The notes under the pieces were generated by a model that did no database searches, had not been told where the DNA came from, and saw only the letters and a program-made list of their open reading frames with translations. Of a stretch of DNA of 64,000 nt, positions 1,822-45,121 are shown piece by piece; position 1 is the first letter of the stretch, and each line of letters begins with the position of its first letter. This stretch comes from an uncultured virus (IMG/VR IMGVR_UViG_3300028833_000011) (taxonomy: Duplodnaviria > Heunggongvirae > Uroviricota > Caudoviricetes), in IMG/VR virus record IMGVR_UViG_3300028833_000011. One strand, written 5' to 3'. Made by a program: the position numbers and the translations under genes.

Positions 1822-3027
1822 ATGAACAAAGACAACGAAAACAAGATGCTTGGTCTATTGGACGAGGCTTTTGCCGACGGCGTTCAAAGTATGGTTCCCG
1901 CATTAAAGAAAGCGGAGGACAACGCCTACCAAAAAGGCCACGACGCGGGTTACGAGTTGGGGTATCGCACGGCGCTAAACGATGTGCAAGTAACGCCTAC
2001 GACCGAAGAACAAGAAGAGGGTAGTGGCATCCCGAAATGGAATATGGAAAGTTTGCCAACGCGCGCGTTTTTTGACTTGCTCACACCCGACGGCTACAAA
2101 GAAAGTGATTATAGCCTTATTTGGCCGTCGCTTGGTCAAACCGACATTGACGACGGGCATGCCGAAAGGAATTACCCGTATGTTGTTCACGGCAAAGGTG
2201 ACAAGTTGCTTGTTATGGGCGACGACGAACCCACACAAACCATCACGCCATATAAAGAGGCTTTCTTTATCTATTGCTTGGTGCCGAACAAGACGTATCG
2301 ATGGAAAATGATGCTCGGCGACAAAATCATCAAAGAGGGAGTGTTCCAAACCACAGGTCGTGTTCGTTGGATGAAAACAAACGTCAACAAATATCCCCAC
2401 AATATGCGCGACCTTGGTTGTCCAAAAGAATTTGTAACGGAGGGCAACGGCATTGTTTGGGAAAGATGCTATCGTGGTGAACATCCAGACAATATCGAGG
2501 TTGGTTCGGTTGACCATTTGTATCTCCGCGACCAACTTGGCATTTCGGTGCAAATAAACCTGCGCGATGCTGACGAAAACCCAGCACGTTCCGACCTTTT
2601 TGAAAAGACATATTCGTACAATATACCCGCTTACGCCGCCATCCTTACGGCAAACCAAACGTATAAAGGCAACTTCAAAAAGGCTTTTCATGCGCTTGTT
2701 ACCGAATTAAAGGCGGGACGTAACGTGCTTATCAATTGTTGGCAAGGCCGCGACCGCACTGGCACGTTCTGTTGGTTCTTGCAAGCGTTATGTCACATGG
2801 CCGCTGGTTATCTACAAGGCCATTGGGAATTGTCAACGTTCGATAGGTGTGAAAACTCTATGATTTGGGAAGAGGTGCATTCCGAAGGCAAATTACGCGA
2901 TATGGTTACGAAATTCAAGGCAAAGTGGGGTGCCAATCCATACGACCAAGCGATTGGGCTTGCAAAGTTTGTTGGCATCCCCGACACCGACATCAAGGAT
3001 TTCCAAGACGTTATGATGGCAAAATAG
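1822..3027 (+). CDS. tyrosine-phosphatase family protein (Y_phosphatase3/IphP-like)
   Basis: NMRDLG, YRG, NLR and CX5R P-loop NCWQGRDRTG. Confidence 0.8.
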   Translation: MNKDNENKMLGLLDEAFADGVQSMVPALKKAEDNAYQKGHDAGYELGYRTALNDVQVTPTTEEQEEGSGIPKWNMESLPTRAFFDLLTPDGYKESDYSLIWPSLGQTDIDDGHAERNYPYVVHGKGDKLLVMGDDEPTQTITPYKEAFFIYCLVPNKTYRWKMMLGDKIIKEGVFQTTGRVRWMKTNVNKYPHNMRDLGCPKEFVTEGNGIVWERCYRGEHPDNIEVGSVDHLYLRDQLGISVQINLRDADENPARSDLFEKTYSYNIPAYAAILTANQTYKGNFKKAFHALVTELKAGRNVLINCWQGRDRTGTFCWFLQALCHMAAGYLQGHWELSTFDRCENSMIWEEVHSEGKLRDMVTKFKAKWGANPYDQAIGLAKFVGIPDTDIKDFQDVMMAK

Positions 3028-3111
3028 TGGCATTCAAACATATAGTTGTCCATTTATAATTTATTTCATAAAATAGCACTAATTCAAATTATATACTATT
3101 CTATTCATTAA

Positions 3112-3151
3112 GCCGCAAGTGTTTGAAATTACAACGCTTGCGGCGTTTTTT
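3112..3151 (+). terminator. intrinsic terminator
   Basis: gccgcaagtgtt...aacgcttgcggc stem followed by a T-run. Confidence 0.7.
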
Positions 3152-3202
3152 ATGCCGAAGAACAAACGCAACTGGCAATAAGCAAGGACTTTCTAAAATA
3201 CA

Positions 3203-3249
3203 TTTTTCAAAATGCCATAAAATTCGTACTTTTGCACACGTAACGTTAC
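3203..3249 (+). promoter_or_regulatory. Bacteroidota sigma-A promoter with downstream palindrome
   Basis: TACTTTTG at 3227-3234 matches TAnnTTTG; perfect palindrome GTAACGTTAC at 3240-3249. Confidence 0.65.
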
Positions 3250-3294
3250 AAAGTGTGTTGTTAACAAGTATGTTTATTTTTCAAATCTAATTTT

Positions 3295-4131
3295 ATGGCA
3301 GAGATTTATCAACTCCCCGAGAATGGAAATGGAAACAACAACATCCCATTCTCTATTCCTATCGGCGGCAACGGGATGTTTGGCAACGGCCAGACGAACC
3401 TCATGGACTTGCTCGGCTTCGCAATCGTTGCAAGCATCTTCCCCAACTTCTTCGGCGGCGCAGGAGGTCGTGGCAATATGCCTAATGTCAACGCAGACCT
3501 CGCTATGCAAGCAATCGTCTCGCAAGGAGAGGCTTCTCGCACGGCTATCCAGACGCTCGCGTCAAGCATCGGGCAGGACTTCAACATCGTCTATGGCACA
3601 ATCGGCAACATTCAGAATGCGCTGTCGCAGATTGGCGCGACACAGGGCATGAATGCCTTGCAGGTCATCAATGCCATTCAGAATGGTAACGCAGGGCTCG
3701 CATCGCAGTTGTCGCAATGTTGCTGCAACAGCCAGCTCGCAATGTGTCAGCAGACCAACGCCCTCCAGTCGCAGGCCGACCGCAACCACAACGCTGTGCT
3801 CAACGCCATCAACGCTCAGACTATCGCCATGAACGACCAGTTCTGCGCCATCAAGGAACGCGAACTCCAATCCAAGATTGACACCCAAGCCGAAATCATC
3901 ACCCAATTGCGCGGACAGATTGACAACGCCAACCAGACCGCCGCTATTACGGGTTATGTCAACGGACTCGTTGCGCCATTGCAAAAGGCCGTCACCGAGA
4001 TTGCGGACAAGATGCCGAACACCATTCCCGTTCAGTGGCCGAATGTCACGGCCGTAAACACCACACCAAACGCGGGTGCATTCTACGGCGGTTTCGGATA
4101 TAACGGCTTTGGTGGCAACGTCGTATTCTAA
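3295..4131 (+). CDS. Gly/Asn/Gln-rich coiled-coil protein with SQCCC motif (cassette gene 1)
   Basis: 278 aa; hydrophobic segment LLGFAIVASIFPNFFG, LASQLSQCCC, long heptad region. Confidence 0.85.
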   Translation: MAEIYQLPENGNGNNNIPFSIPIGGNGMFGNGQTNLMDLLGFAIVASIFPNFFGGAGGRGNMPNVNADLAMQAIVSQGEASRTAIQTLASSIGQDFNIVYGTIGNIQNALSQIGATQGMNALQVINAIQNGNAGLASQLSQCCCNSQLAMCQQTNALQSQADRNHNAVLNAINAQTIAMNDQFCAIKERELQSKIDTQAEIITQLRGQIDNANQTAAITGYVNGLVAPLQKAVTEIADKMPNTIPVQWPNVTAVNTTPNAGAFYGGFGYNGFGGNVVF

Positions 4132-4156
4132 GAATTAGCGGAAAGGAGGCAAAAGC

Positions 4157-4492
4157 ATGAATTGTTTTAACGTGACAACAAATGCGGGTGGTATTCCGCT
4201 TATTCCATCCACAAAGACAACTGTCGGTACCGAAAGCGTGGATATTTCTCTTGGTTTTCGTCGTATTCAGCCAATTGGCTATTTGACCATTCGGTTGAAC
4301 GATGCAATTCCTGCGGGAACTACCGACACTTTGCCGATTACTCTTACTATGGGTGGTACGACGCGCGCGTTGACGCTATTCAACGGGACACCCGTTACTG
4401 TGGCCGACTTAATCGGCGGTACGGGAGTTTTCCTTGTGTTTAACAATCGTTTTGACGGCATTCTTCAACTGATGTCGCGAACAACAACTTAA
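4157..4492 (+). CDS. small beta-rich hypothetical protein (cassette gene 2)
   Basis: 111 aa, Thr/Gly-rich beta-strand pattern, tightly packed in the operon. Confidence 0.8.
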   Translation: MNCFNVTTNAGGIPLIPSTKTTVGTESVDISLGFRRIQPIGYLTIRLNDAIPAGTTDTLPITLTMGGTTRALTLFNGTPVTVADLIGGTGVFLVFNNRFDGILQLMSRTTT

Positions 4493-4504
4493 CAACAAGC
4501 GATT

Positions 4505-5014
4505 ATGGATTTCAATAGTTTAGGCAACGGCAATCCGTTCTACATCTTACGGCAAGGCGAGAAACCTTTGCTCGAGGTAGGTGTGGTAAAGGCGAAATCG
4601 CAACCACACGTTCAATTTCCTACGCAAACACCAAACATCATGACGGGTTTGCAAACGCAACAAGTCGTAGATGTCACTGTTACAATCAATGGGAAAGATG
4701 AGGTTTTCCAAAACATCCCAATTGGCGTAGAAATAGCGCAACGCGGCAACGACACGTTTTCGGGTAGTAGAGAGGCAATGCTTCAAGCGGTGGATGCAAT
4801 GCTGCAAACATCGAAAAAGGCATTAGACCAAGTACCCTATCACAAGTCGGTGATTGCGGAAAGTGAAAAGATGCTTGAAACACTTAATCCTCGGTATGCC
4901 GAAGAAAAGCGCCAAGCAAAAACAATAAAATCGTTGGAGGAAAGGCAAGCGGCAACCGACGCGAAGTTAGATAGCATTCTTGCTATATTGCAAAAACTTG
5001 ATTCGCCTTCTTGA
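4505..5014 (+). CDS. hypothetical protein with C-terminal coiled coil (cassette gene 3)
   Basis: 169 aa ORF in the operon. Confidence 0.8.
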   Translation: MDFNSLGNGNPFYILRQGEKPLLEVGVVKAKSQPHVQFPTQTPNIMTGLQTQQVVDVTVTINGKDEVFQNIPIGVEIAQRGNDTFSGSREAMLQAVDAMLQTSKKALDQVPYHKSVIAESEKMLETLNPRYAEEKRQAKTIKSLEERQAATDAKLDSILAILQKLDSPS

Positions 5015-5064
5015 CGCGACGATTGAATTCATAACAACAAACAAACGAAAGAAAGGGTATTAAA

Positions 5065-5298
5065 ATGAGTTGGATTTTTGTAGATAAAGACAAAGAAAGC
5101 GGGGGCGATGAAATGCGCCGACAAATGCGCCGAAACATGCGCAATGGTGGCAGTTATCGCGGCTACAATGATGGCGGCGGTTCGCAGTACAACGAGGGCT
5201 ATCGCCAAGGTTACAAGCATGGTTGGGAAGATAGCGAGGAGGAAATGGACGACGTTGAATATCGTCGCCGCCGTGATTCTCGTGGCCGATACATGTAA
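5065..5298 (+). CDS. small Arg/Gly/Tyr-rich disordered protein ending RRRRDSRGRYM (cassette gene 4)
   Basis: 77 aa, low complexity, basic C-terminal tail. Confidence 0.8.
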   Translation: MSWIFVDKDKESGGDEMRRQMRRNMRNGGSYRGYNDGGGSQYNEGYRQGYKHGWEDSEEEMDDVEYRRRRDSRGRYM

Positions 5299-5390
5299 TG
5301 TAATCGTGATTTAACAACGGATGGGCGGGCAAGATAATAATTCGTATGCTTGCCCATCTTTATTTTAACTATTAATAATAAAGCAAAAGT

Positions 5391-5786
5391 ATGGAACATT
5401 ATATAAGCAAAGGTCGTGCTATTTACGAGGATGAAAATCATGGTTTGTTTAGCAAGAAACTTGCCGAATATGCTATCTCAAAAATGCGAACGGAGGACGT
5501 TAACGGAATGCCAAAGCCCATCGTTGCAAGAAAACTTGACGATGTTAAAGACGTGTTCAAACAATACGGAGTAGTTATTCAAGACGAATTTTGCTATACG
5601 GCATGGTATTTGTTCAACATGGCGGTTGCTGATTATCCAAAGACGTTGACGACGGACGAACAACGCGCAATGTTTGTAGAGGAAACAATAGGCGACCCCG
5701 ACGGCATGCCAGAAAACGTCTTGGATTGCTTTGCCGTCAAGATGCGAAATGCGGGTGTGCCGATATTTTGGGAGGAATTCCTATAA
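5391..5786 (+). CDS. helical hypothetical protein (cassette gene 5)
   Basis: 131 aa ORF ending GVPIFWEEFL. Confidence 0.8.
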   Translation: MEHYISKGRAIYEDENHGLFSKKLAEYAISKMRTEDVNGMPKPIVARKLDDVKDVFKQYGVVIQDEFCYTAWYLFNMAVADYPKTLTTDEQRAMFVEETIGDPDGMPENVLDCFAVKMRNAGVPIFWEEFL

Positions 5787-14380: not shown

Positions 14381-15271
14381 TTAGTATTTCTTAAACATTA
14401 ATACATTTTGATGCACCTTTACAAGTTTGCCGCTTTTCATGTTCCCGCCCGCGCGCAAAGCCGCGCTTGCTAATGCCGTCGCCAAAATAGCGTCGTTGTA
14501 AAATCCCATGCCTTTGCAGCGTTGCATCAACTTAATCGTGTCGGCAACAAACCCGTAATAATTTCCTTGCTTATTTCTTACTTCGCCGACAACAACAATG
14601 GCCATTCCTCCTTTTTTGAGCAATTTGCAAGATTTACGCATAATGCTTTCAAATGCAAAGATAAAGTCGTCATAGTCCATATTGGAAATGTCGCCTTGGA
14701 TGTCGCTATAAACCTCCAAGTCCGCATACGGGGGACACGTAAACACGAGGTCGAACTCTTTGTTCCATTCCCTGTCTAATATAACGTTTGAATCACCACA
14801 ATACCATTGTGGCTGATTGTTGGGTTCGAGGATTGAAAGCGCTTGTTCGCGATTTGAATCAACTTGCTCTTGCCTAATGTCTATGCCGCTATAATGATAG
14901 CCAAGATAGTTGGCGACAATACCGCGTACCGAACCGCCAGCAAACGGGTCAAGAATTGCACCGCCTTGCGGACAAAACCACCGATACATCAATTCACAAA
15001 GAACGGGGTCAAAGATAGAAGTATCGCTCGGCAACTTATTGCCTTTCAAAGTTCCTTCTTGTCCTTTTTTATCTGCCCAGTCTTTCATGTGAAAAGTTAC
15101 GGCATCACGACCGACCTCGGATTGTATGCCCATGTTAATCCATTTTTTTTTCCTTGCTTGCCATAAGCCATCTTTGACATCAAGAATAGTAAAAGGATTT
15201 GCACCAAACTCTCGTTTTAAGTCACCCCTTTGCTCGATAGGGTTCCCGAATAAATCAAAATCTTGTTGCAT
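14381..15271 (-). CDS. DNA amino-methyltransferase (N6-A/N4-C class)
   Basis: ILDPFAGGS SAM-binding motif and DLVFTCPPY catalytic motif. Confidence 0.85.
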   Translation of the reverse strand: MQQDFDLFGNPIEQRGDLKREFGANPFTILDVKDGLWQARKKKWINMGIQSEVGRDAVTFHMKDWADKKGQEGTLKGNKLPSDTSIFDPVLCELMYRWFCPQGGAILDPFAGGSVRGIVANYLGYHYSGIDIRQEQVDSNREQALSILEPNNQPQWYCGDSNVILDREWNKEFDLVFTCPPYADLEVYSDIQGDISNMDYDDFIFAFESIMRKSCKLLKKGGMAIVVVGEVRNKQGNYYGFVADTIKLMQRCKGMGFYNDAILATALASAALRAGGNMKSGKLVKVHQNVLMFKKY

Positions 15272-15285
15272 ATTTATAGTTTTTT

Positions 15286-16272
15286 TTAATAAATTAAATA
15301 TTCTATCTTGCCGTCGCTACACATTTCTTTGTGTTTTATAAGCCTTTTTTCTGAAGGCATACAACCTAATATATAAATACGCTTTACATTTGGCAGGTGC
15401 TTAAAACAAAGAAATTTCGTTTTTTGTTCCATATTATACCTAAGCATTTTGTCAAGAATAGGGTCTTGTGTGTCATAATGCTTTAGGTCTTTTTGGTATA
15501 GGTTGTATGCGACATTCCCGAAGACATAAAGTACACATACGCTTATTAAAATACTCTTGTAATAAATACATAACAACTTTATATTGTCATAACCTCTACA
15601 AAAAGCACAAAATTCGTCGTTGTCTTTCTTGCTTACAAAACTACCTCTTTCAACAAGATACTTATTAAAGTCATTTACTATGGCTTGTGTGTCGTTTTGT
15701 GGTATTTTATCAAGAATAACAACATTAAAATCCTTGTTTTCTTGCAATGTTTTAATTCCCCAATGTTTTATTTTTTTTCTTGGAATTAAATCAGTTGCTT
15801 GTCGAGTATAATAATAATTTGTGTATTCAACAAGTCTTTTATTTTTTTGAACGTTCAACAACCTTGTTGCATAATCAGACATGGCAAATTTTATAAATGG
15901 CTTGTTGTTTAATATTTCAAACACCTTTCGTGTGTTGTCAATATTGCCATCTATGGCTATTGGCAAGTCAAAAACACGGATTTGTTTTGTCTTGATGATT
16001 TGTATTATTTTATACGCAATAAAATATAAAGCGCCGCAAATATCAACTACAAAAAAACGAAACGACTTGTCATTTGTAATTGTATTAAATGCTGGAAGAC
16101 AATGATAAAATGGGACATTTTCCTCTTTATTGTAAAAAGCATTATAATATTTTAGTATAGTTTCATTGTAACTATCATTCAATAAATACCCACCCTTAAA
16201 AAAATCAAATTCTGCATTTTCTAAGTCTGTTAATGAAATGGGCTCCGTATTTAATTCAAATAAACAATTCAT
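15286..16272 (-). CDS. GNAT/DUF2156-like (Fem/aminoacyl-transferase fold) protein
   Basis: YTNYYY...RKKIKHW...LLCIYYK..LISVC...AYNLYQK...IYILG..SEKRLIKHKE resembles the DUF2156 layout; recognised by eye only. Confidence 0.45.
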   Translation of the reverse strand: MNCLFELNTEPISLTDLENAEFDFFKGGYLLNDSYNETILKYYNAFYNKEENVPFYHCLPAFNTITNDKSFRFFVVDICGALYFIAYKIIQIIKTKQIRVFDLPIAIDGNIDNTRKVFEILNNKPFIKFAMSDYATRLLNVQKNKRLVEYTNYYYTRQATDLIPRKKIKHWGIKTLQENKDFNVVILDKIPQNDTQAIVNDFNKYLVERGSFVSKKDNDEFCAFCRGYDNIKLLCIYYKSILISVCVLYVFGNVAYNLYQKDLKHYDTQDPILDKMLRYNMEQKTKFLCFKHLPNVKRIYILGCMPSEKRLIKHKEMCSDGKIEYLIY

Positions 16273-17297
16273 AACTCTTTTGCAATAATACTATTTGACA
16301 ACGACCTATGTAAAAACGCTTCATACGCATTTTTAGCGTTTTTTATTTCTATTTGCGGGTGAACGGATGATAGTTTGGTGATTAAAAAATTAATACAATG
16401 CTTGTAAAAAGCCTTGTTGAGCGGCACTACATTTTTGTCGGCAAGAAAAATATATTCTGTGCAACATTTCCAACATGAACCACACCTGTTTGGAAGTAAA
16501 TCAATTTCATATTTCATTTCGTTGCGATTTCGAGTTGTTTGCCGAAAACGATATGGCAAAATACAACCGCAAACCATTTTTAATATTTCAATATTGTTGC
16601 TAACTTCGTCGAGTGTATCGTTATATGTTGCAAACGGAATAATCAATTCGGCAGTTGGTATATATTTGCGAACGCAATAAGTCCACGCATCCCACATTTC
16701 TTGCGTATCTGACCAACTCTCGTAAAATTGTGAATTGTAAATATTGTCTGTTGTAAAATCACCGAATGCTATTGTGGTGCCAATATGGTTAAGGATTGCA
16801 TAATCAAGCGCCATGCTTGCAATAAGTTGATTTTTTATTGGGTTTTCCTTAAATGACGAAACCCCAGATTGTTTAATTTCGTCTATAAATAAAGGCATAT
16901 CTATTTTTTTAGCCAAATCTATAACGTGCATAAACTCATCTGGGTATGACTTATTAATGCCTTTTATATGATAAAGAAAAACATTTTTGCCAGATTTTTT
17001 CATTTTTAATGCGGTTGCCAAACTATCTTTACCGCCACTAAAACATACTACAACGTTGTTTTTGTTATAGTCAATATTTATATGACCTTTTTCAAGTTCG
17101 GTAAAATTCCATTGGAAATGCTTATTTGCGCCACATTCTAATACGTCAACAAGTTTTTTTGTAGAAATGTCGTATTCATATTCACTTGCCAACGTTTCAG
17201 TAAAGCACAAATTTCCGATTGCCGTATATAGTTTTGCAATTTCAAGAGTGTGGCCGCTAATTTGTCGGTTGAATTTTAAGCGAATTCTATCATTCAT
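16269..17297 (-). CDS. QueC-like PP-loop ATP pyrophosphatase with C-terminal Zn site
   Basis: VVVCFSGGKDS PP-loop, NPIKNQLI, C...RCGSCWKC. Confidence 0.75.
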   Translation of the reverse strand: MNDRIRLKFNRQISGHTLEIAKLYTAIGNLCFTETLASEYEYDISTKKLVDVLECGANKHFQWNFTELEKGHINIDYNKNNVVVCFSGGKDSLATALKMKKSGKNVFLYHIKGINKSYPDEFMHVIDLAKKIDMPLFIDEIKQSGVSSFKENPIKNQLIASMALDYAILNHIGTTIAFGDFTTDNIYNSQFYESWSDTQEMWDAWTYCVRKYIPTAELIIPFATYNDTLDEVSNNIEILKMVCGCILPYRFRQTTRNRNEMKYEIDLLPNRCGSCWKCCTEYIFLADKNVVPLNKAFYKHCINFLITKLSSVHPQIEIKNAKNAYEAFLHRSLSNSIIAKEL

Positions 17298-17301
17298 ATT
17301 A

Positions 17302-17670
17302 TTATTTTTTTGAGTTTTTACTTTCCCTTAAAATGGCCTTGATTTTTTCTTGGCCAACATATAACATTGCGCTAACCTTGGAATAGATACCGACACGACG
17401 CAACTTGCGAATCTTATCAAAGTCGCCTTGTTCGTTGCTTTGTCGATAGGATTTACCGAGCATCTTTGGGATGTCGGTTCTTGAAACGCGTTCGTCGTCA
17501 CAAAGACGCGCCAACATTTCTACCTCTTTTTCGTTGGCGCAACATTGCTTGCTTTTATTGTCGGCGATAAGTTTTTCAACAACATCGTGCAAGCCAAATT
17601 TCTTTGCTATACCTTTTGTCTTGGCAAGATAAAACCTACAAAGTCTTTGTAATTCGTCGTTGTTTTTCAT
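17302..17670 (-). CDS. basic hypothetical protein, possibly DNA-binding
   Basis: 122 aa ORF in the operon. Confidence 0.7.
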   Translation of the reverse strand: MKNNDELQRLCRFYLAKTKGIAKKFGLHDVVEKLIADNKSKQCCANEKEVEMLARLCDDERVSRTDIPKMLGKSYRQSNEQGDFDKIRKLRRVGIYSKVSAMLYVGQEKIKAILRESKNSKK

Positions 17671-32297: not shown

Positions 32298-32450
32298 AGT
32301 CTTGTTGTTTTTTAAGTTGTTATTATATATATGTTGGTGTTAAATGTTTTCTAAATAAAGCCATATCCTACCTCGCGGCTGTATATGGCAACCTATGAAA
32401 TTAACCTTTTCTAACTTCTATTATTATTTACTATCTAACTCTAAAACTTG

Positions 32451-32521
32451 TTGCCCCACCGAGACTCGAACTCAGTCAAACAGAACCAAAATCTGGTGTG
32501 CTACCATTACACCATGGGGCA
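32451..32521 (-). tRNA. tRNA-Gln (anticodon TTG)
   Basis: TGCCCCA/TGGGGCA acceptor stem, GGTGTAATGGTAGCAC D-arm, loop TT-TTG-GT, GTTCGAGTC T-loop. CCA is not encoded (CAA follows). Confidence 0.9.
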
Positions 32522-37163: not shown

Positions 37164-37967
37164 TTATTTGTTCAACATTATTGCCTCGCGTATCGTGTGA
37201 ATATACGACGCAATTTTTACTTGTTTGGCACGATTATCCATGCCGTCAAAATCCCATTTTGCAAATAACGTGTGGTCGGCCATACCCTTGAAATCGCACA
37301 TCATTTCGGCAATGCGAATCGCCATGCCGTTTTTGGTGTTAATTTCGTTCCATGACCAAAGTTGAGGATTTTCTCCGCCGCACGCCGCAGGGAAAAGACG
37401 CTTAAATATTTTAAGCATCGTTTGCACGTCGCGTGAATCAATGTAACGGGCGTTTTTTGTGGCGCCACGTTTTGCCGATTCCTCTTTGCGCTGTTCTAAT
37501 GGTTTTGCGTCGAACGTTTCGCGCCATTTGTCGGACGCGCCGCCCGTCGTTTCGCCACGTTCCTTTTTCGCCGCCAAAGCCTTCTTGGTTCGGTCGCTTG
37601 TTAATTCGCGTTCGTATTGCGCGACGGCCGCGAACACACCTAAAAGCAACGTGTTCATTTGTGGCATGTCCACAAAATGAATCTCGATACCTGTGTTGAC
37701 GACCTTAAAGCAAAACTCTACGTCGCGTGCAAGTCGGTCAAGTTTGGCTATCACAAGCGCGCAATCATTCGCCTTGCAAAATGCAATAGCCGCCGCAAGC
37801 CCTTTGCGGTCGCGATGCGTTCCGCTTTCAACGTCGCAAAATTCCTCAGCCTTTTCGCCGCCGTTTGCCACGATGAAATCTTCACACATCTTTCGCTGCG
37901 CCTCCAAGCCAAGGCCGCTTGAACCCTGCTTGCGTGTCGATACCCTTATATAAATTGCGTATTTCAT
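37164..37967 (-). CDS. serine recombinase, resolvase/invertase family
   Basis: YIRVST catalytic Ser, DVESG...R, AKLDRLAR, AQYERE; no large-serine-integrase domains evident. Confidence 0.9.
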   Translation of the reverse strand: MKYAIYIRVSTRKQGSSGLGLEAQRKMCEDFIVANGGEKAEEFCDVESGTHRDRKGLAAAIAFCKANDCALVIAKLDRLARDVEFCFKVVNTGIEIHFVDMPQMNTLLLGVFAAVAQYERELTSDRTKKALAAKKERGETTGGASDKWRETFDAKPLEQRKEESAKRGATKNARYIDSRDVQTMLKIFKRLFPAACGGENPQLWSWNEINTKNGMAIRIAEMMCDFKGMADHTLFAKWDFDGMDNRAKQVKIASYIHTIREAIMLNK

Positions 37968-42871: not shown

Positions 42872-43651
42872 TTAGTTAGCCTTCAAAAGCAGCTCCTCGA
42901 GTTGTTCGTTATTACGAACATACTCCAGGTCATAGAAGCTGAGGGCGACGTCGAATTTCACGCCGTTACTTTTAAGATAACTGCGGAGGTCGTCTCCGTC
43001 CATGCTGCTGCCCATGTCATAACCAAACCAGCCATGTATTTCGCGATACCTAAAGCCGAGGCGTCTGTTCCATGCGCTCGACAAAAGAGGGAAGGCGCAT
43101 TTTACAAAATCAAGATGCTGCCCTGCGTCTTTTAGTTTTACGCTGAAGCCGAGTTTTTTGTCTTTATATTTAGACGCGCAATTTGTGGCATGTAGCTCTA
43201 TGCGATACCCCTGACGCTCGAGGGACATTATGGCTGAAAGCAGACGTGCTGATACCTTTGCGATTTTGCTCGTATCGACGTCGCCGCGCGTATTGCACCC
43301 ATAGAACACGCGGAGGACTTTCTTTTCAATTTTGCGCTCCTCACAGAAAATCATGTTATTTGGCACGCCAGCCAAATAATTTGGGACATGTGGCATAAAA
43401 CCAGCAACACGCGTCACCATGCGCTTCTGTACGCCTGTACATGGTGCATTAAATTTAAGTTTATCACAGCCGCGTATGATTTTTGATAAATTAACGTCGC
43501 CGTTAACTATGCGCTCAACTGCCTCGTCGTATGTGGCAGACCCTGACCACTCTTTGTCTGACTCGTCGTTAGAACATGCTTTTTCGTTTTCGCTTTTTGG
43601 CAAATCTTTAACGAGCGCAAATATTGAATTATACTCGGTGAAGTCCTTCAT
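42872..43651 (-). CDS. vWA-like partner of the MoxR-type ATPase
   Basis: GFMPHVPNYLAGVPNNM, SLERQGYRIEL, VKLKDAGQ; directly downstream of the AAA+ gene. Confidence 0.6.
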   Translation of the reverse strand: MKDFTEYNSIFALVKDLPKSENEKACSNDESDKEWSGSATYDEAVERIVNGDVNLSKIIRGCDKLKFNAPCTGVQKRMVTRVAGFMPHVPNYLAGVPNNMIFCEERKIEKKVLRVFYGCNTRGDVDTSKIAKVSARLLSAIMSLERQGYRIELHATNCASKYKDKKLGFSVKLKDAGQHLDFVKCAFPLLSSAWNRRLGFRYREIHGWFGYDMGSSMDGDDLRSYLKSNGVKFDVALSFYDLEYVRNNEQLEELLLKAN

Positions 43652-43714
43652 TTTTTTATGCTTTTAATTTGTCGTTTGAATTATGTTGTTATATGACACG
43701 AATGAGGAGGCCGT

Positions 43715-45121
43715 TTACCAGACCTCCTCGTTTGTCATTTCATTAATGCACGCCTTCATGGCTTTTGCCCAGCGATTATTTTTGTCGTCGAGTTGTGCAT
43801 AAAGGTTCTGCACGTCGTCAACTTCCTTCTCTTGCAATACTGAGCCGCGAAGAAGATGCGCGTCGTCATTCAAGCACGCGGCCTGGAGTGTAGCGAGGTC
43901 TGCGGCCTGGCGATAACTAAACAACTGCGAAATACCTGCGCGGCGTGCTGCGCGGCGCAAATCGGCGCCGAAATTGACTATTTCCTCGTCACCGCCTGTT
44001 ATATCAAGCATGACCTCCCTATCGTATGTTACTACTTCAAAGAAAAATCTATTTTTGAAAGACGTGTCTTGCATCTGTCGCGCGGTGTATTCAATCGTCG
44101 CGCCAGTCATTCGCGTATTGCCAGCCGCGATAACGCGAAAGTTAGGATGAGCCTCGACATTGCCGATAACTGGGAAGTCGAAGCGCTTGTTTGCAATAGC
44201 GTTATTTAATACGACAAGAGCCTCGGGTGCCGAGGCGTCAACTTCGTCTAAGAAGAACACTCCGCCGTTAACGAATGCGCGATAAAAGGACGTCTCGACG
44301 AAACGCCCTGCGGCGTCGCCGTATCCTTTTAACTCGTGTGCAAACATGGCCTGGCTCGTTTCGTAATAGTCAAAACCGAGGGCCTCAGCAATTTGCTTTG
44401 CGGTGTATGATTTGCCGCAGCCCGCAGGTCCGTACATGTATAAAGGTTTGCCTGCCTGAACGAGATTGCAATAGATAGCGAAATTCTTCGCCGTTTTTCC
44501 GTTAACGACATTCACGCCCTGTGGTGATACAACTTCGAGCTTATTCGCTGGCTGTTGCGTGAGCGCCTCCTTTTCGGCATTAATTCGGGCGTTAACTTCG
44601 TCTATCATTCGCGCCATGAATTTCTTCTCGAGGCGTGCTTCGTCAATTCCTTCGGTGTCAGCATATTTGGCAGCGGCTTCGAAAATCTCGGCACCCATGA
44701 CGCCGTATTTTTCAAGAAGCTCGGCTTTTACCTTTTCGCGGTCTGTATAATACGAAAGCTCGGTCTTCGCAATTTCCAACTCACGCTCAAACGTTTCGGG
44801 CGTCGGAGTTGTTTCGACGACAACTGGCTCCTCGATAACGGCGGGCTCCTCGATAACAACTGACTCCTCGGCGGGCGTCGATACGCGGCGCTGGCGCTTC
44901 TTGTTTGTCACTTTGACTATCTCCCAGCCTTCGGCCAGCGTGAATGTTTCGACTCCGTTCTCGTCTGTGTTAAGAAGGCTGACCTGCGGCCAGTTACTAT
45001 AAAATCTGCTGTTTGCTTTGCCGCTATAATCGGCGCTGAACGAGCCGTCTTCGTTTGCGTGGAAATGATACATTTTCTTTTCTTCACCCGAGATGCTGTT
45101 TCTGATAATGATATTTGACAT
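43715..45121 (-). CDS. AAA+ ATPase, MoxR/CbbQ/CobS-like
   Basis: GPAGCGKS, FFLDEVDA, AHPNFRVIAAGNT, NRF. Confidence 0.9.
   Translation of the reverse strand: MSNIIIRNSISGEEKKMYHFHANEDGSFSADYSGKANSRFYSNWPQVSLLNTDENGVETFTLAEGWEIVKVTNKKRQRRVSTPAEESVVIEEPAVIEEPVVVETTPTPETFERELEIAKTELSYYTDREKVKAELLEKYGVMGAEIFEAAAKYADTEGIDEARLEKKFMARMIDEVNARINAEKEALTQQPANKLEVVSPQGVNVVNGKTAKNFAIYCNLVQAGKPLYMYGPAGCGKSYTAKQIAEALGFDYYETSQAMFAHELKGYGDAAGRFVETSFYRAFVNGGVFFLDEVDASAPEALVVLNNAIANKRFDFPVIGNVEAHPNFRVIAAGNTRMTGATIEYTARQMQDTSFKNRFFFEVVTYDREVMLDITGGDEEIVNFGADLRRAARRAGISQLFSYRQAADLATLQAACLNDDAHLLRGSVLQEKEVDDVQNLYAQLDDKNNRWAKAMKACINEMTNEEVW

What the first reader, a model, noticed from the sequence alone, without database searches (positions are those of the whole stretch)
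14381..17297. QueC-like PP-loop ATPase + GNAT/DUF2156-like transferase + DNA methyltransferase operon: candidate new DNA modification system
Seen: three co-oriented genes, the first two overlapping by ATGA and the third starting 14 nt later, placed between the dUTPase/recombination and replication genes. The first two are visibly more AT-rich than their flanks. Established: QueC-family enzymes adenylate carboxyl groups (preQ0 synthesis, with related QatC/Cap9 proteins in defence systems); DUF2156/Fem-fold enzymes transfer amino acids from aminoacyl-tRNA; CPPY-type enzymes act on exocyclic amines of A or C. No folE, queD, queE or dpdA is visible, so this is not the canonical 7-deazaguanine pathway. 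Inference: a multistep base hypermodification for anti-restriction, or a protein/tRNA-modifying anti-defence module.
Basis: partly seen in the sequence, partly recalled or inferred. Interest (0 to 1): 0.8.

Follow-up and report, generated by a model that had tools for sequence, protein, structure and literature searches.

The report
Phage methyltransferase-centred DNA hypermodification candidate
An uncultured phage carries three tightly packed enzyme genes, and comparison with other phages suggests they jointly attach an amino-acid-like group to the phage's own DNA, a chemistry nobody has measured for this enzyme set.

Summary
Three co-oriented minus-strand genes sit at 16269-17297, 15286-16272 and 14381-15271, with an ATGA overlap and a 14-nt spacer. 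The first two are AT-rich (33.5% and 29.2% GC against 43.2% for the window).

- Gene 1 is a PP-loop enzyme closest to QatC, Cap9 and QueC.
- Gene 2 is a tandem-GNAT protein closest to DUF2156, MprF and FemX, which are aminoacyl-tRNA transferases.
- Gene 3 is a PF01555 DNA methyltransferase (MTase) with a T(C/S)PPY motif.

The MTase family is the hub.
- The PP-loop family lies beside it in 14 of 18 viral loci, in both gene orders.
- In one protein the PP-loop domain is inserted inside the MTase domain.
- A PLP-enzyme domain is inserted at the same loop in cyanophage Pam4.
- The Fem-like gene lies beside the MTase in one phage lineage, and beside distant MTase-like genes in a second.
- The MTase does not need these partners: 0 of its 80 closest viral relatives has either.

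The best reading is a facultative DNA hypermodification module. It resembles Mom (tRNA-dependent) and CmoX/CmoY (MTase plus amide ligase), but uses different enzyme families. The chemistry and the target are inferred, not shown.

The parts
16269..17297 (-). QueC/QatC/Cap9-like PP-loop ATP pyrophosphatase (342 aa). It has an N-terminal extra domain, an invariant SGGKDS motif, and conserved Cys245, Cys272, Cys275, Cys278 and Cys301.
15286..16272 (-). Tandem-GNAT, DUF2156/Fem-fold transferase (328 aa), presumed aminoacyl-tRNA dependent. It belongs to a small, virus-associated family with no Pfam model.
14381..15271 (-). N6-adenine/N4-cytosine-type DNA methyltransferase (296 aa). Motif I is DPFAGGSVRG (residue 108) and motif IV is TCPPY (residue 179). 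It also has a conserved N-terminal PPF/NPF-x-LD...W..RK..W segment. This family is the hub to which the other two families attach.
   Evidence: PF01555 at 2e-13, 51.2 bits against cutoff 26.7. phrog_12517 at 2.8e-83 and phrog_498 at 4.3e-66. Motifs are shown. The nearest solved chains are 2zie, the N4-C MTases 8s9n and 1boo, and the N6-A MTases MboIIA and CcrM. In 2zie motif IV precedes motif I, whereas here I precedes IV, so the order is permuted.
17302..17670 (-). Conserved small basic protein (122 aa, pI 9.7) directly upstream, 4 nt before the PP-loop gene. In relatives it sits directly upstream of the Fem-like gene. It may be co-transcribed; its function is unknown, and a helix-turn-helix fold is only a lead.
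   Evidence: ORF; junction. Homologues sit upstream of the Fem-like gene in 15 of the 22 fetched Fem-like loci (L001, L004, L005 of the six viral ones; L025-L027, L029-L031, L033, L035, L037, L038 of the 16 metagenome ones, L025 being the window's own contig). No Pfam, PHROG or PADLOC family. Atlas scores are <=0.80, which are leads only.

Best explanation
The three genes form a co-transcribed, facultative DNA-hypermodification module built around a phage DNA methyltransferase.

**Proposed roles**
- **MTase.** The S/CPPY-type MTase binds phage DNA and flips its target base, an exocyclic amine of adenine or cytosine. It either methylates that base or presents it to the partner enzymes.
- **Fem-like enzyme.** The DUF2156/Fem-fold enzyme takes an amino acid from a charged host tRNA and puts it on the DNA-borne amine. 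This is Mom-like chemistry in a different GNAT architecture.
- **PP-loop enzyme.** The QueC/Cap9/QatC-like enzyme uses ATP to adenylate a carboxylate and forms a further amide bond. This caps or extends the adduct.
- **Slot alternatives.** In sister phages the same slot holds a second Fem paralogue instead of the PP-loop gene. Both fillings would be alternative second-step acylating enzymes.
- **Expected benefit.** Protection of phage DNA from host nucleases.

**What is shown**
- The gene arrangement.
- The folds.
- The retained ATP-binding motif in the PP-loop enzyme, and motif I and motif IV in the MTase.
- The linkage and domain insertion of PP-loop and MTase.
- The linkage of Fem-like and MTase.

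**What is inferred**
- That DNA is the substrate.
- That the donor is aminoacyl-tRNA.
- The order of the steps.
- The nature of the adduct.
For: **PP-loop and MTase are functionally integrated.**
- Of 18 viral loci fetched with the PP-loop profile, 14 carry a strong member of this MTase family directly adjacent (A3 profile E<=2e-55).
- Both gene orders occur: PP-loop then MTase in L007 and L011/12; MTase then PP-loop in L015-L019 and L021-L023.
- These loci come from genomes of 32-65% GC.
- In L013/L014 a single 656-aa protein reads MTase N-part (profile 71-230), PP-loop (residues 183-477), MTase C-part (profile 236-373).
- In L020 the PP-loop ORF lies between two MTase half-ORFs split at profile 215/219.
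- On an MTase tree of 96 sequences the PP-loop-linked MTases fall in at least five separate places.

**Other amino-acid-chemistry enzymes attach to the same hub.**
- A PALP-fold PLP domain is inserted at the same loop (profile 214/216) in Pseudanabaena phage Pam4 gp70.
- Homologous PALP genes lie beside the MTase in L003 and in Staphylococcus phage Alsa_1. A second, only distantly related PALP branch lies beside it in L118 and L101.
- SAM decarboxylase follows the MTase in phages ZRG1 and P2559S.
- SAM synthetase precedes the MTase-PP-loop pair in L022.

**The Fem-like gene is adjacent to the MTase.**
- In viral loci, 5 of 6 show this adjacency.
- In metagenome loci, 11 of 16 do, one of them the window's own contig. 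Three more cannot be assessed because the contig ends, and one is negative (L032).
- A second, 26%-identical lineage (L006/L040) has the Fem-like gene flanked by distant PF01555 MTase-like genes.

**PP-loop and Fem-like genes occur together elsewhere.**
- They are together in L039.
- They are probably together on four further contigs, judged only from equal contig lengths. This was not verified.

**Folds.**

**Precedents in print.**
- Mom transfers glycine from Gly-tRNA to N6 of adenine in dsDNA (PMC13219725, abstract and Discussion read).
- CmoX is an MTase-fold enzyme and CmoY is an ATP-dependent amide ligase homologous to asparagine synthetase; together they build 5-glycylcarboxymethyl-C. 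That paper states that no N6/N4 counterpart was found (PMC12783734, abstract and sections 11, 13, 14 read).
- QueC-family enzymes form amides with amines other than ammonia (10.1101/2025.11.03.686418, abstract and section 7 read).
Against: - The MTase does not need either partner. Among the 80 best of 385 viral relatives of the MTase (44-87% identity), none had a PP-loop or Fem-like gene within 3 kb. Most neighbours there are ordinary phage genes.
- The Fem-MTase linkage rests mainly on one syntenic phage lineage, whose MTases form a single clade. Conserved gene order alone could explain it.
- No fused form of the Fem-like protein was found. This is weak evidence.
- In the window the PP-loop and Fem-like genes have a GC content 10-14 points below the MTase and the genome. 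They therefore arrived separately from the MTase.
- Every characterised relative of the Fem-like fold acts on lipids, peptidoglycan precursors, small molecules or protein N-termini, not DNA (titles).
- The only non-ammonia acceptors known for QueC-family enzymes are protein N-termini (QatC preprint).
- The insertion loop in the MTase coincides with the circular-permutation junction relative to 2zie. It may simply tolerate insertions.
- No chemical or sequencing-kinetics data exist.
Confidence: 0.5

Rival explanations
1. The MTase is an ordinary orphan anti-restriction methylase. The PP-loop and Fem-like genes form an unrelated accessory (moron) cassette dropped into a recombination-prone slot beside it. 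They act on a non-DNA target, for example host lipid or cell-wall precursors (as MprF and FemX do) or a small metabolite, for host takeover or superinfection exclusion.
For: - 0 of 80 closest MTase relatives carry either partner.
- The slot upstream of the Fem-like gene is variable: PP-loop, Fem paralogue, or empty.
- The cassette is strongly AT-rich against an average-GC MTase.
- The best structural matches of the Fem-like protein are lipid, peptidoglycan and natural-product aminoacyl transferases.
- One Fem-like locus has no MTase (L032).
Against: - The PP-loop domain is inserted inside the MTase polypeptide (L013/14), and the MTase is split around the PP-loop gene in L020.
- 14 of 18 PP-loop loci have this MTase family adjacent, in both orders and in unrelated genome backgrounds.
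- A second Fem-like lineage is again flanked by MTase-like genes (L006/L040).
- The PP-loop family is almost absent from cellular genomes. Only 1 strong hit appeared among the 12 loci returned from one genome each of 185,579 species, and that hit lies beside a phage capsid gene.
Confidence: 0.22
2. The two accessory enzymes modify a protein rather than DNA. The PP-loop enzyme acylates the N-terminal amine of a partner protein, possibly the MTase itself, as Cap9 and probably QatC do. The Fem-like enzyme adds an amino acid to a protein N-terminus, as L/F-transferase and Ate1 do. Together they would tune or protect the MTase or another phage or host protein.
For: - Tight linkage and fusion with the MTase would also fit an enzyme-substrate pair.
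Against: - The window MTase begins MQQDF.... It lacks the glycine at position 2 that the QatC preprint describes for QatB.
- With the PP-loop domain inserted in the middle of the MTase, no obvious role in N-terminal modification follows.
- PALP, SAM decarboxylase and SAM synthetase partners fit small-molecule or base chemistry better than protein tagging.
- Ate1 matches are well below the DUF2156/MprF matches.
Confidence: 0.13
3. The PP-loop enzyme is not an amide ligase. It is a base-activating or sulfur-transferring enzyme of the TtuA/ThiI/LarE/DndC type. It would use its CxxCxxC cysteines for an Fe-S cluster and thiolate or aminate a carbonyl of the base that the MTase flips out.
For: - The best sequence-level matches are to TtuA (NCBIfam 2.3e-6; PDB profile hit 5e-9) and to LarE.
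- Three closely spaced conserved cysteines, C272, C275 and C278, could hold a cluster.
- The PHROG hits include 'PAPS reductase' families.
Against: - Those sequence matches cover only the generic PP-loop region, residues about 59-144.
- By whole-domain structure QueC, Cap9 and QatC score about 3 Z units above LarE, TtuA and ThiI.
- No sulfur-carrier or cysteine desulfurase gene was seen among the neighbours scanned.
Confidence: 0.06

Closest known systems
Mom of phage Mu (tRNA-dependent adenine N6 hypermodification; PMC13219725)
   Same: A phage GNAT-superfamily enzyme that uses aminoacyl-tRNA as the activated donor to acylate an exocyclic amine in double-stranded DNA for restriction evasion. 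This is the only precedent for the chemistry proposed for the Fem-like gene.
   Different: - Mom is a single GNAT domain with a helix-turn-helix-like insertion and acts alone. The window protein is a 328-aa tandem GNAT of the DUF2156/Fem type with no sequence match to any Pfam or PHROG family, Mom included.
- The window protein is paired with an MTase and a PP-loop enzyme.
- Its DNA activity is untested.
CmoA/CmoX/CmoY of Synechococcus phage S-B43 (PMC12783734)
   Same: A methyltransferase-fold enzyme on DNA plus an adjacent ATP-dependent, AMP-forming amide ligase that extends the adduct. ParB-domain proteins are often nearby.
   Different: - CmoX is a C5-cytosine MTase homologue with an SPPC motif and a carboxylate-binding Arg, and it needs the Cx-SAM synthase CmoA.
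- Here the MTase is a PF01555 N6/N4 type.
- Here the ligase is QueC-like, not asparagine-synthetase-like.
- No CmoA-like family was seen among the 62 window proteins scanned.
- The authors state they found no N6/N4 counterpart.
QueC-family conjugating enzymes Cap9 (type IV CBASS) and QatC (QatABCD)
   Different: - Cap9 and QatC are bacterial defence proteins that act on the N-terminus of a partner protein and have TGT-like or QatA/B/D partners.
- The window protein is phage-encoded, its partner is a DNA MTase, and no Qat or Cap partner was detected.
DUF2156 / aminoacyl-phosphatidylglycerol synthase C-terminal domain (MprF) and FemX/FemA
   Same: The same tandem-GNAT fold over about 250-276 residues. 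The nearest non-viral Atlas clusters carry PF09924 or PF02388.
   Different: - No Pfam model is matched by the window protein.
- Only 1 of 84 family members gives even a sub-threshold PF09924 hit.
- The protein is soluble and stand-alone, is encoded by a phage, and sits next to a DNA MTase rather than membrane or cell-wall genes.
ParB-N6/N4 methyltransferase fusions of phages (PMC12704722) and IbrA/ParB-type PP-loop cassettes
   Same: - The hub MTase family includes many ParB-fused members.
- PP-loop enzymes next to ParB and MTase genes recur in phages.
   Different: - The window MTase retains only a short N-terminal remnant (phrog_15396 at 4.6e-5).
- The PP-loop enzyme is QueC-like, not PAPS-reductase/IbrA-like.
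- The survey paper assigns no function to the fusions.

Membership tests
QueC (7-cyano-7-deazaguanine synthase; PF06508 / TIGR00364) | PP-loop pyrophosphate-binding motif SxGxDS | tested here: met
   SGGKDS at residues 87-92 is invariant in 51 aligned family members.
QueC (7-cyano-7-deazaguanine synthase; PF06508 / TIGR00364) | Score above the curated family threshold | tested here: not met
   PF06508 scores 13.5 bits against cutoff 22. TIGR00364 scores 12.3 bits against 150.3.
QueC (7-cyano-7-deazaguanine synthase; PF06508 / TIGR00364) | Whole-domain fold closer to the QueC clade than to other PP-loop enzymes | tested here: met
   QatC 15.3, Cap9 15.0 and QueC 14.8/14.3, against LarE 12.1 or below for other families.
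QueC (7-cyano-7-deazaguanine synthase; PF06508 / TIGR00364) | C-terminal four-cysteine zinc site | tested here: inconclusive
   C245, C272, C275 and C278 are conserved and lie within the range aligned to QueC (79-292). No residue-level superposition was available. The spacing of the first Cys is longer than I recall for QueC (recalled, not from a call).
QueC (7-cyano-7-deazaguanine synthase; PF06508 / TIGR00364) | 7-carboxy-7-deazaguanine-binding Tyr/Asp pair (BsQueC Y129/D131, as given in 10.1101/2025.11.03.686418 section 7) | not testable with these tools
   Sequence alignments to QueC cover only residues 77-140. The fold tools return no residue-by-residue alignment.
QueC (7-cyano-7-deazaguanine synthase; PF06508 / TIGR00364) | Genomic company of FolE/QueD/QueE or DpdA | tested here: not met
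   None were found among 62 window proteins scanned against PHROGs. DNA outside the window was not examined.
QatABCD / type IV CBASS QueC-like component | Partner genes QatA/B/D or a CD-NTase with Cap10 | tested here: not met
   PADLOC gives only a generic QueC model hit (1e-4) for gene 1. It gives nothing for gene 2 or the upstream gene, and MTase models for gene 3.
Fem / DUF2156 aminoacyl-tRNA-dependent transferases (PF02388, PF09924, PF13480) | Tandem GNAT fold | tested here: met
Fem / DUF2156 aminoacyl-tRNA-dependent transferases (PF02388, PF09924, PF13480) | Match to a family profile | tested here: not met
   0 Pfam and 0 NCBIfam families at E<=1. 0 PDB chains at E<=10 with the family profile. 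1 of 84 relatives hits PF09924 at 1.7e-4, below its cutoff.
Fem / DUF2156 aminoacyl-tRNA-dependent transferases (PF02388, PF09924, PF13480) | Use of aminoacyl-tRNA as donor | not testable with these tools
   This needs an enzyme assay. The window encodes one tRNA, tRNA-Gln(TTG) at 32450-32521, whose relevance is unknown.
Mom-like DNA aminoacyl transferases | Single GNAT domain with HTH-like insertion and catalytic R111/S124 (PMC13219725 abstract and section 13 passages) | tested here: inconclusive
   The window protein is a two-lobed tandem GNAT. No Mom family appears in Pfam or PHROG hits. Mom is not among the listed fold matches, which does not exclude relatedness.
N6/N4 DNA methyltransferase (PF01555) | Family profile above threshold, with SAM-binding motif I and catalytic (D/N/S)PPY motif IV | tested here: met
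   51.2 bits against cutoff 26.7. In the 18-sequence alignment A3, D108, F110, G112 and G117 of motif I and P180, P181 and Y182 of motif IV are invariant. Motif IV reads T/S-C/S-PPY across relatives.
CmoX/CmoY carboxymethyl pathway | C5-MTase homologue with SPPC motif, plus the CmoA Cx-SAM synthase | tested here: not met
   The MTase is PF01555, not a C5 type. No CmoA-like family was found among the window proteins scanned.

The most novel reading that the evidence does not exclude
This permuted S/CPPY methyltransferase family is a general docking platform for a combinatorial phage toolkit that builds amino-acid or peptide-like adducts on the exocyclic nitrogen of adenine or cytosine in DNA.

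The handle could come from either of two sources:
- the amino-acid end of SAM (3-amino-3-carboxypropyl, or aminopropyl where a SAM decarboxylase is present);
- an aminoacyl group from charged tRNA.

The handle would then be tailored by interchangeable modules:
- a QueC-like amide ligase;
- one or two DUF2156-fold tRNA-dependent transferases, acting like FemX, FemA and FemB in succession;
- a PALP-fold PLP enzyme;
- a 2-oxoglutarate hydroxylase-like enzyme;
- a radical-SAM enzyme.

The window phage would then carry an 'aminoacyl/peptidyl-DNA' mark of a type not yet described. It would be made by two enzyme families never before tied to DNA.
Probability: 0.17. Interest if true: 0.9.

Novelty: new variant of a known kind. 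Interest (0 to 1): 0.72.

Why it matters
Phage DNA hypermodifications defeat restriction enzymes and CRISPR nucleases and complicate sequencing. They have also supplied new enzymes for biotechnology.

Only two routes related to this one are known:
- Mom, a single tRNA-dependent GNAT enzyme acting on adenine N6.
- CmoX/CmoY, a C5-carboxymethylase with an amide ligase.

The authors of the CmoX/CmoY paper state that they found no N6/N4-type counterpart. This module is a concrete candidate for such a counterpart.

If the reading is right, several things follow:
- The DUF2156/Fem fold and the QueC/QatC/Cap9 clade gain DNA as a substrate.
- Charged tRNA would be shown as a donor for DNA modification beyond Mom.
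- Recurrent, unexplained fusions get an explanation: methyltransferase with a PP-loop domain, and methyltransferase with a PLP-enzyme domain (one of them in the cultured cyanophage Pam4).

The idea is directly testable by expressing gene subsets and measuring nucleoside masses.

Tried and rejected
**Searches that found nothing**
- Nucleotide search of the region against cultured phages gave only a 90-nt match inside the MTase gene, to Pam4.
- The Fem-like protein has no tblastn match in 50,697 phage records.
- The whole-genome search failed because no genome is held for this window.
- Searching for fused, longer forms of the Fem-like family found none; this is weak evidence.
- The Fem-like family profile matched no PDB sequence at E<=10.

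**Complex prediction**
- The MTase plus Fem-like job then returned 'no answer' (score 0.00 against a mark of 0.32). This is neither support for nor evidence against binding.

**Contexts for distant Fem-like relatives**
- Two single-protein scans of viral contigs found no relative.
- The context of most of the 129 Fem-like clusters is therefore unknown.

**Ideas considered and dropped**
- A universal third partner downstream of MTase-PP-loop pairs. The 160-201-aa neighbours are only pairwise related within lineages; one is a SET-domain protein.
- Canonical 7-deazaguanine pathway. No FolE, QueD, QueE or DpdA was found.
- A QatABCD or CBASS defence system carried by the phage. No partner genes were found.

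**Uninformative or untestable**
- The promoter and terminator scan was uninformative, apart from showing no minus-strand terminator-like site inside the cluster.
- The upstream 122-aa protein gave only sub-threshold helix-turn-helix leads.
- I could not map the deazaguanine-binding residues of QueC onto the PP-loop protein.

**Literature**
- Searches found no paper describing a QueC-like enzyme plus a DUF2156-fold enzyme plus an N6/N4 MTase.
- They also found no paper describing aminocarboxypropyl-DNA.
- This holds only for the library searched. Supplementary files were not opened.

Full report
**1. Observation**

One search lists three long minus-strand ORFs at the coordinates given:
- 16269-17297, 342 aa, here called PPL.
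- 15286-16272, 328 aa, here called FEM.
- 14381-15271, 296 aa, here called MT.

The junctions are as described.
- The PPL stop and the FEM start share ATGA.
- FEM ends in TAA and a 14-nt spacer precedes the MT start.
- A fourth gene, a 122-aa basic protein at 17302-17670, ends 4 nt before PPL.

GC falls to 0.28-0.32 over 15200-17200 against 0.40-0.45 on both sides. Per gene the values are PPL 33.5%, FEM 29.2% and MT 43.2%, against 43.2% for the whole window.

The surroundings are a phage replication and recombination block:
- dUTPase, RecT-like, RecE-like, SSB, sliding-clamp-like and primase-helicase genes.
- A DnaD/replication-initiator-like gene.

Tail and terminase genes lie further on. No minus-strand terminator-like site lies inside the cluster.

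**2. What the three proteins are**

*PPL*
- Its sequence matches to PP-loop families are weak and cover only the nucleotide-binding region.
- SGGKDS is invariant in 51 aligned homologues, together with C245, C272, C275 and C301; C278 is conserved in at least 90%.
- With that alignment AlphaFold gives a confident model, pLDDT 95.5.
- PPL is therefore a member of the QueC/Cap9/QatC structural clade, but it fails the curated QueC thresholds.

*FEM*
- It matches no Pfam or NCBIfam family, and its family profile matches no PDB sequence.
- Its model (pLDDT 87.9) is a tandem GNAT.
- Foldseek finds FemX at E 5e-11, then A-PGS, MprF and Sbb17.
- Apart from 2hqy, which has no known function, every entry down to rank 16 is an aminoacyl-tRNA-dependent transferase.
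- The family is small. There are 16 homologues by the word-indexed search and 129 clusters at E<=1e-3 among 1.84 billion representatives. Only 1 of 84 of these shows even a sub-threshold PF09924 hit.
- The nearest Atlas clusters are viral.

*MT*
- It is a bona fide PF01555 enzyme (51.2 bits against 26.7).
- Motif I is DPFAGGSVRG and motif IV is TCPPY. Both are conserved across relatives as DPF(A/G)G... and (T/S)(C/S)PPY.
- Relative to the nearest solved chain, 2zie, the order of the two motifs is permuted.
- Solved N4-cytosine and N6-adenine enzymes match about equally, so the target base is open.
- From memory, not from a call: S-PPY/F is commoner in N4-cytosine enzymes.

**3. Linkage: the methyltransferase is the hub**

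*PPL with MT.* The PPL profile fetched 18 viral loci.
- 14 of the 18 carry a strong member of the MT family directly adjacent.
- L008 has a weak family member (1.4e-10).
- L009 and L010 instead have a radical-SAM gene.
- L024 is only a marginal PPL hit.
- Some loci are duplicates of each other (L009=L010, L011=L012, L013=L014). L015 and L023 are near-identical.
- Both gene orders occur, in genomes of 32-65% GC.

*Domain insertions and splits.*
- In L013/L014 one 656-aa protein has the PPL domain inserted inside the MT domain. The layout is MT profile 71-230, PPL residues 183-477, MT profile 236-373.
- In L020 the PPL ORF separates two MT half-ORFs at profile positions 215/219.
- The MT motifs are kept in the inserted L013 protein. 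In L020 motif I lies on the first half-ORF and motif IV on the second.

*Tree.* On a tree of 96 distinct MT sequences the PPL-linked MTs sit in at least five separate places, some nested among MTs without partners.

*Distribution.* In one genome each of 185,579 prokaryotic species, only one of the 12 loci returned is a strong PPL relative. It lies downstream of a phage capsid gene, beside GmrSD-like and EcoRI-type methylase genes. The PPL family is essentially viral.

*FEM with MT.*
- FEM lies next to the MT in 5 of 6 viral loci.
- It does so in 11 of 16 metagenome loci, including the window's own contig. Three more end at the FEM gene, and one (L032) has no MT.
- These loci share the order small basic gene, [PPL | second FEM paralogue | nothing], FEM, MT, replication initiator. 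Their MTs form one clade. Most of this linkage could therefore be synteny.
- Independent support is thinner:
  - A 26%-identical FEM in a 28%-GC phage (L006/L040) is again flanked by distant PF01555 MT-like genes.
  - L022 has, two genes upstream of its MT-PPL pair, a 322-aa protein that matches the FEM profile only marginally (hhalign probability 68%, E 4.7e-5).
- PPL and FEM occur together in the window and in L039.
- Four more pairs are suggested only by equal contig lengths. This was not verified.

*The MT without partners.* The MT does not need partners.
- Of 385 viral relatives, the 80 best (44-87% identity) have no PPL or FEM within 3 kb.
- Their neighbours are mostly ordinary phage genes.

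**4. A wider toolkit on the same hub**

*PALP (PLP-enzyme) partners*
- Pseudanabaena phage Pam4 gp70 is annotated as a 'PLP-dependent enzyme'. It is in fact this MT with a PALP-fold domain inserted at the same loop, profile 214/216.
- Homologues of that PALP domain lie beside the MT in L003 (order FEM-MT-FEM-PALP) and in Staphylococcus phage Alsa_1.
- In Alsa_1 the order is MT, an apparently frameshifted PPL homologue, then PALP.
- L118 and L101 carry a second PALP branch.

*SAM-related partners*
- SAM decarboxylase follows the MT in phages ZRG1 and P2559S.
- SAM synthetase precedes MT-PPL in L022.

*Other partners*
- Asp/Arg-hydroxylase-like proteins and a sulfotransferase occur occasionally.

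*Reading.* All of these enzymes work on amino-acid-like groups or on SAM. The insertion loop coincides with the permutation junction of the MT fold. That may make it tolerant of insertions, so the position itself proves little. The repeated fusion still shows that the domains work together.

**5. Mechanism**

*Best-supported reading (confidence about 0.5).* This is a facultative DNA-hypermodification module.
- The MT binds DNA and exposes an exocyclic amine.
- FEM transfers an amino acid from charged tRNA to a DNA-borne amine.
- PPL adenylates a carboxylate and forms a further amide.

- Mom transfers glycine from Gly-tRNA to N6-adenine in dsDNA (PMC13219725; abstract, Discussion and found passages).
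- CmoX/CmoY combines an MTase-fold enzyme with an ATP-dependent amide ligase, and its authors found no N6/N4 counterpart (PMC12783734; abstract, sections 11, 13, 14).
- QueC-family enzymes acylate amines other than ammonia (10.1101/2025.11.03.686418; abstract, section 7).

*An inference from the slot.* In sister phages PPL's slot is filled by a second FEM paralogue. This suggests that both act as alternative second-step acylating enzymes. It is an inference.

*Shown.* The gene arrangement, the folds, the retained motifs, and the linkage and fusion.

*Inferred.* The DNA substrate, the tRNA donor, the order of steps and the adduct.

*Rivals.*
- An ordinary MTase plus an unrelated accessory cassette (0.22).
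- Protein N-terminal modification (0.13).
- A thiolating or base-activating PP-loop enzyme (0.06).

**6. Novelty**

Searches of the held literature found no description of this enzyme combination or of an aminocarboxypropyl-type DNA mark. The ParB-fold survey notes ParB-N6/N4 MTase fusions in phages without assigning a function (PMC12704722, passages).

I did not test it.

I rate this a new variant of a known kind, namely phage post-replicative DNA hypermodification. It uses two enzyme families not previously tied to DNA.

**7. Limits**
- No chemistry was measured.
- FEM contexts are known for only a fraction of the family.
- The complex prediction gave no verdict.
- DNA beyond the 64-kb window was not scanned.
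- Supplementary files of the papers were not opened.

Noticed in passing
L054 (Pseudanabaena phage Pam4, ON014756.1) 2018-4507: Pam4_70 is annotated as a 'pyridoxal-phosphate dependent enzyme'. It is an 829-aa protein in which a PALP-fold domain (residues about 405-646) is inserted inside a ParB-type N6/N4 DNA methyltransferase of the window's family.
   Followed up: yes
L053 (Staphylococcus phage Alsa_1, OR354820.1) about 3900-5447: A homologue of the PP-loop gene follows a DNA methyltransferase. It appears frameshifted: the SGxDS motif is in one frame and the rest in another, and the region is annotated as several short hypothetical CDS. The next CDS (Alsa1_CDS0035) is a PALP-fold protein, 35% identical to the one in L003.
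   Followed up: partly
L057 3980-4369 (Pseudomonas phage ZRG1) and L058 3875-4195 (Croceibacter phage P2559S): A small S-adenosylmethionine decarboxylase gene directly follows, with a slight overlap, the ParB-methyltransferase of this family in two unrelated cultured phages.
   Followed up: partly
L022 1213-5930: A same-strand array in a 50%-GC viral contig. It reads: a 322-aa protein with a marginal match to the Fem-like profile, an S-adenosylmethionine synthetase, a ParB-type MTase of this family, and the PP-loop enzyme.
   Followed up: partly
L009/L010 4890-7072: Here the PP-loop gene is followed by a radical-SAM protein (381 aa) instead of a methyltransferase, and sits among clamp-loader genes.
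   Followed up: no
L041 4752-8302 (Acidobacteriota MAG contig): This is the only strong cellular-genome relative of the PP-loop protein. It lies downstream of a phage capsid gene and next to a GmrSD-like type IV restriction endonuclease and an EcoRI-type adenine methylase on the opposite strand.
   Followed up: no
window 32450-32521 (-): The only tRNA gene in the window is tRNA-Gln (anticodon TTG). Whether it bears on a tRNA-dependent transferase is unknown.
   Followed up: no
window 37164-37967 (-): A serine-recombinase/DNA-invertase-like gene (phrog_125 at 1.9e-32) lies in the middle of the phage genome.
   Followed up: no
window 42872-45121 (-): An AAA-type ATPase filed under PHROG 'porphyrin biosynthesis' (phrog_249 at 9e-46) lies next to a conserved protein of unknown function (phrog_1909). 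It resembles a chelatase/MoxR-like pair in a phage.
   Followed up: no
window 14381-15271 compared with PDB 2zie: The hub methyltransferase family has motif I before motif IV, the reverse of the nearest solved beta-class enzyme. All three domain insertions or splits found fall at the junction of this circular permutation.
   Followed up: partly
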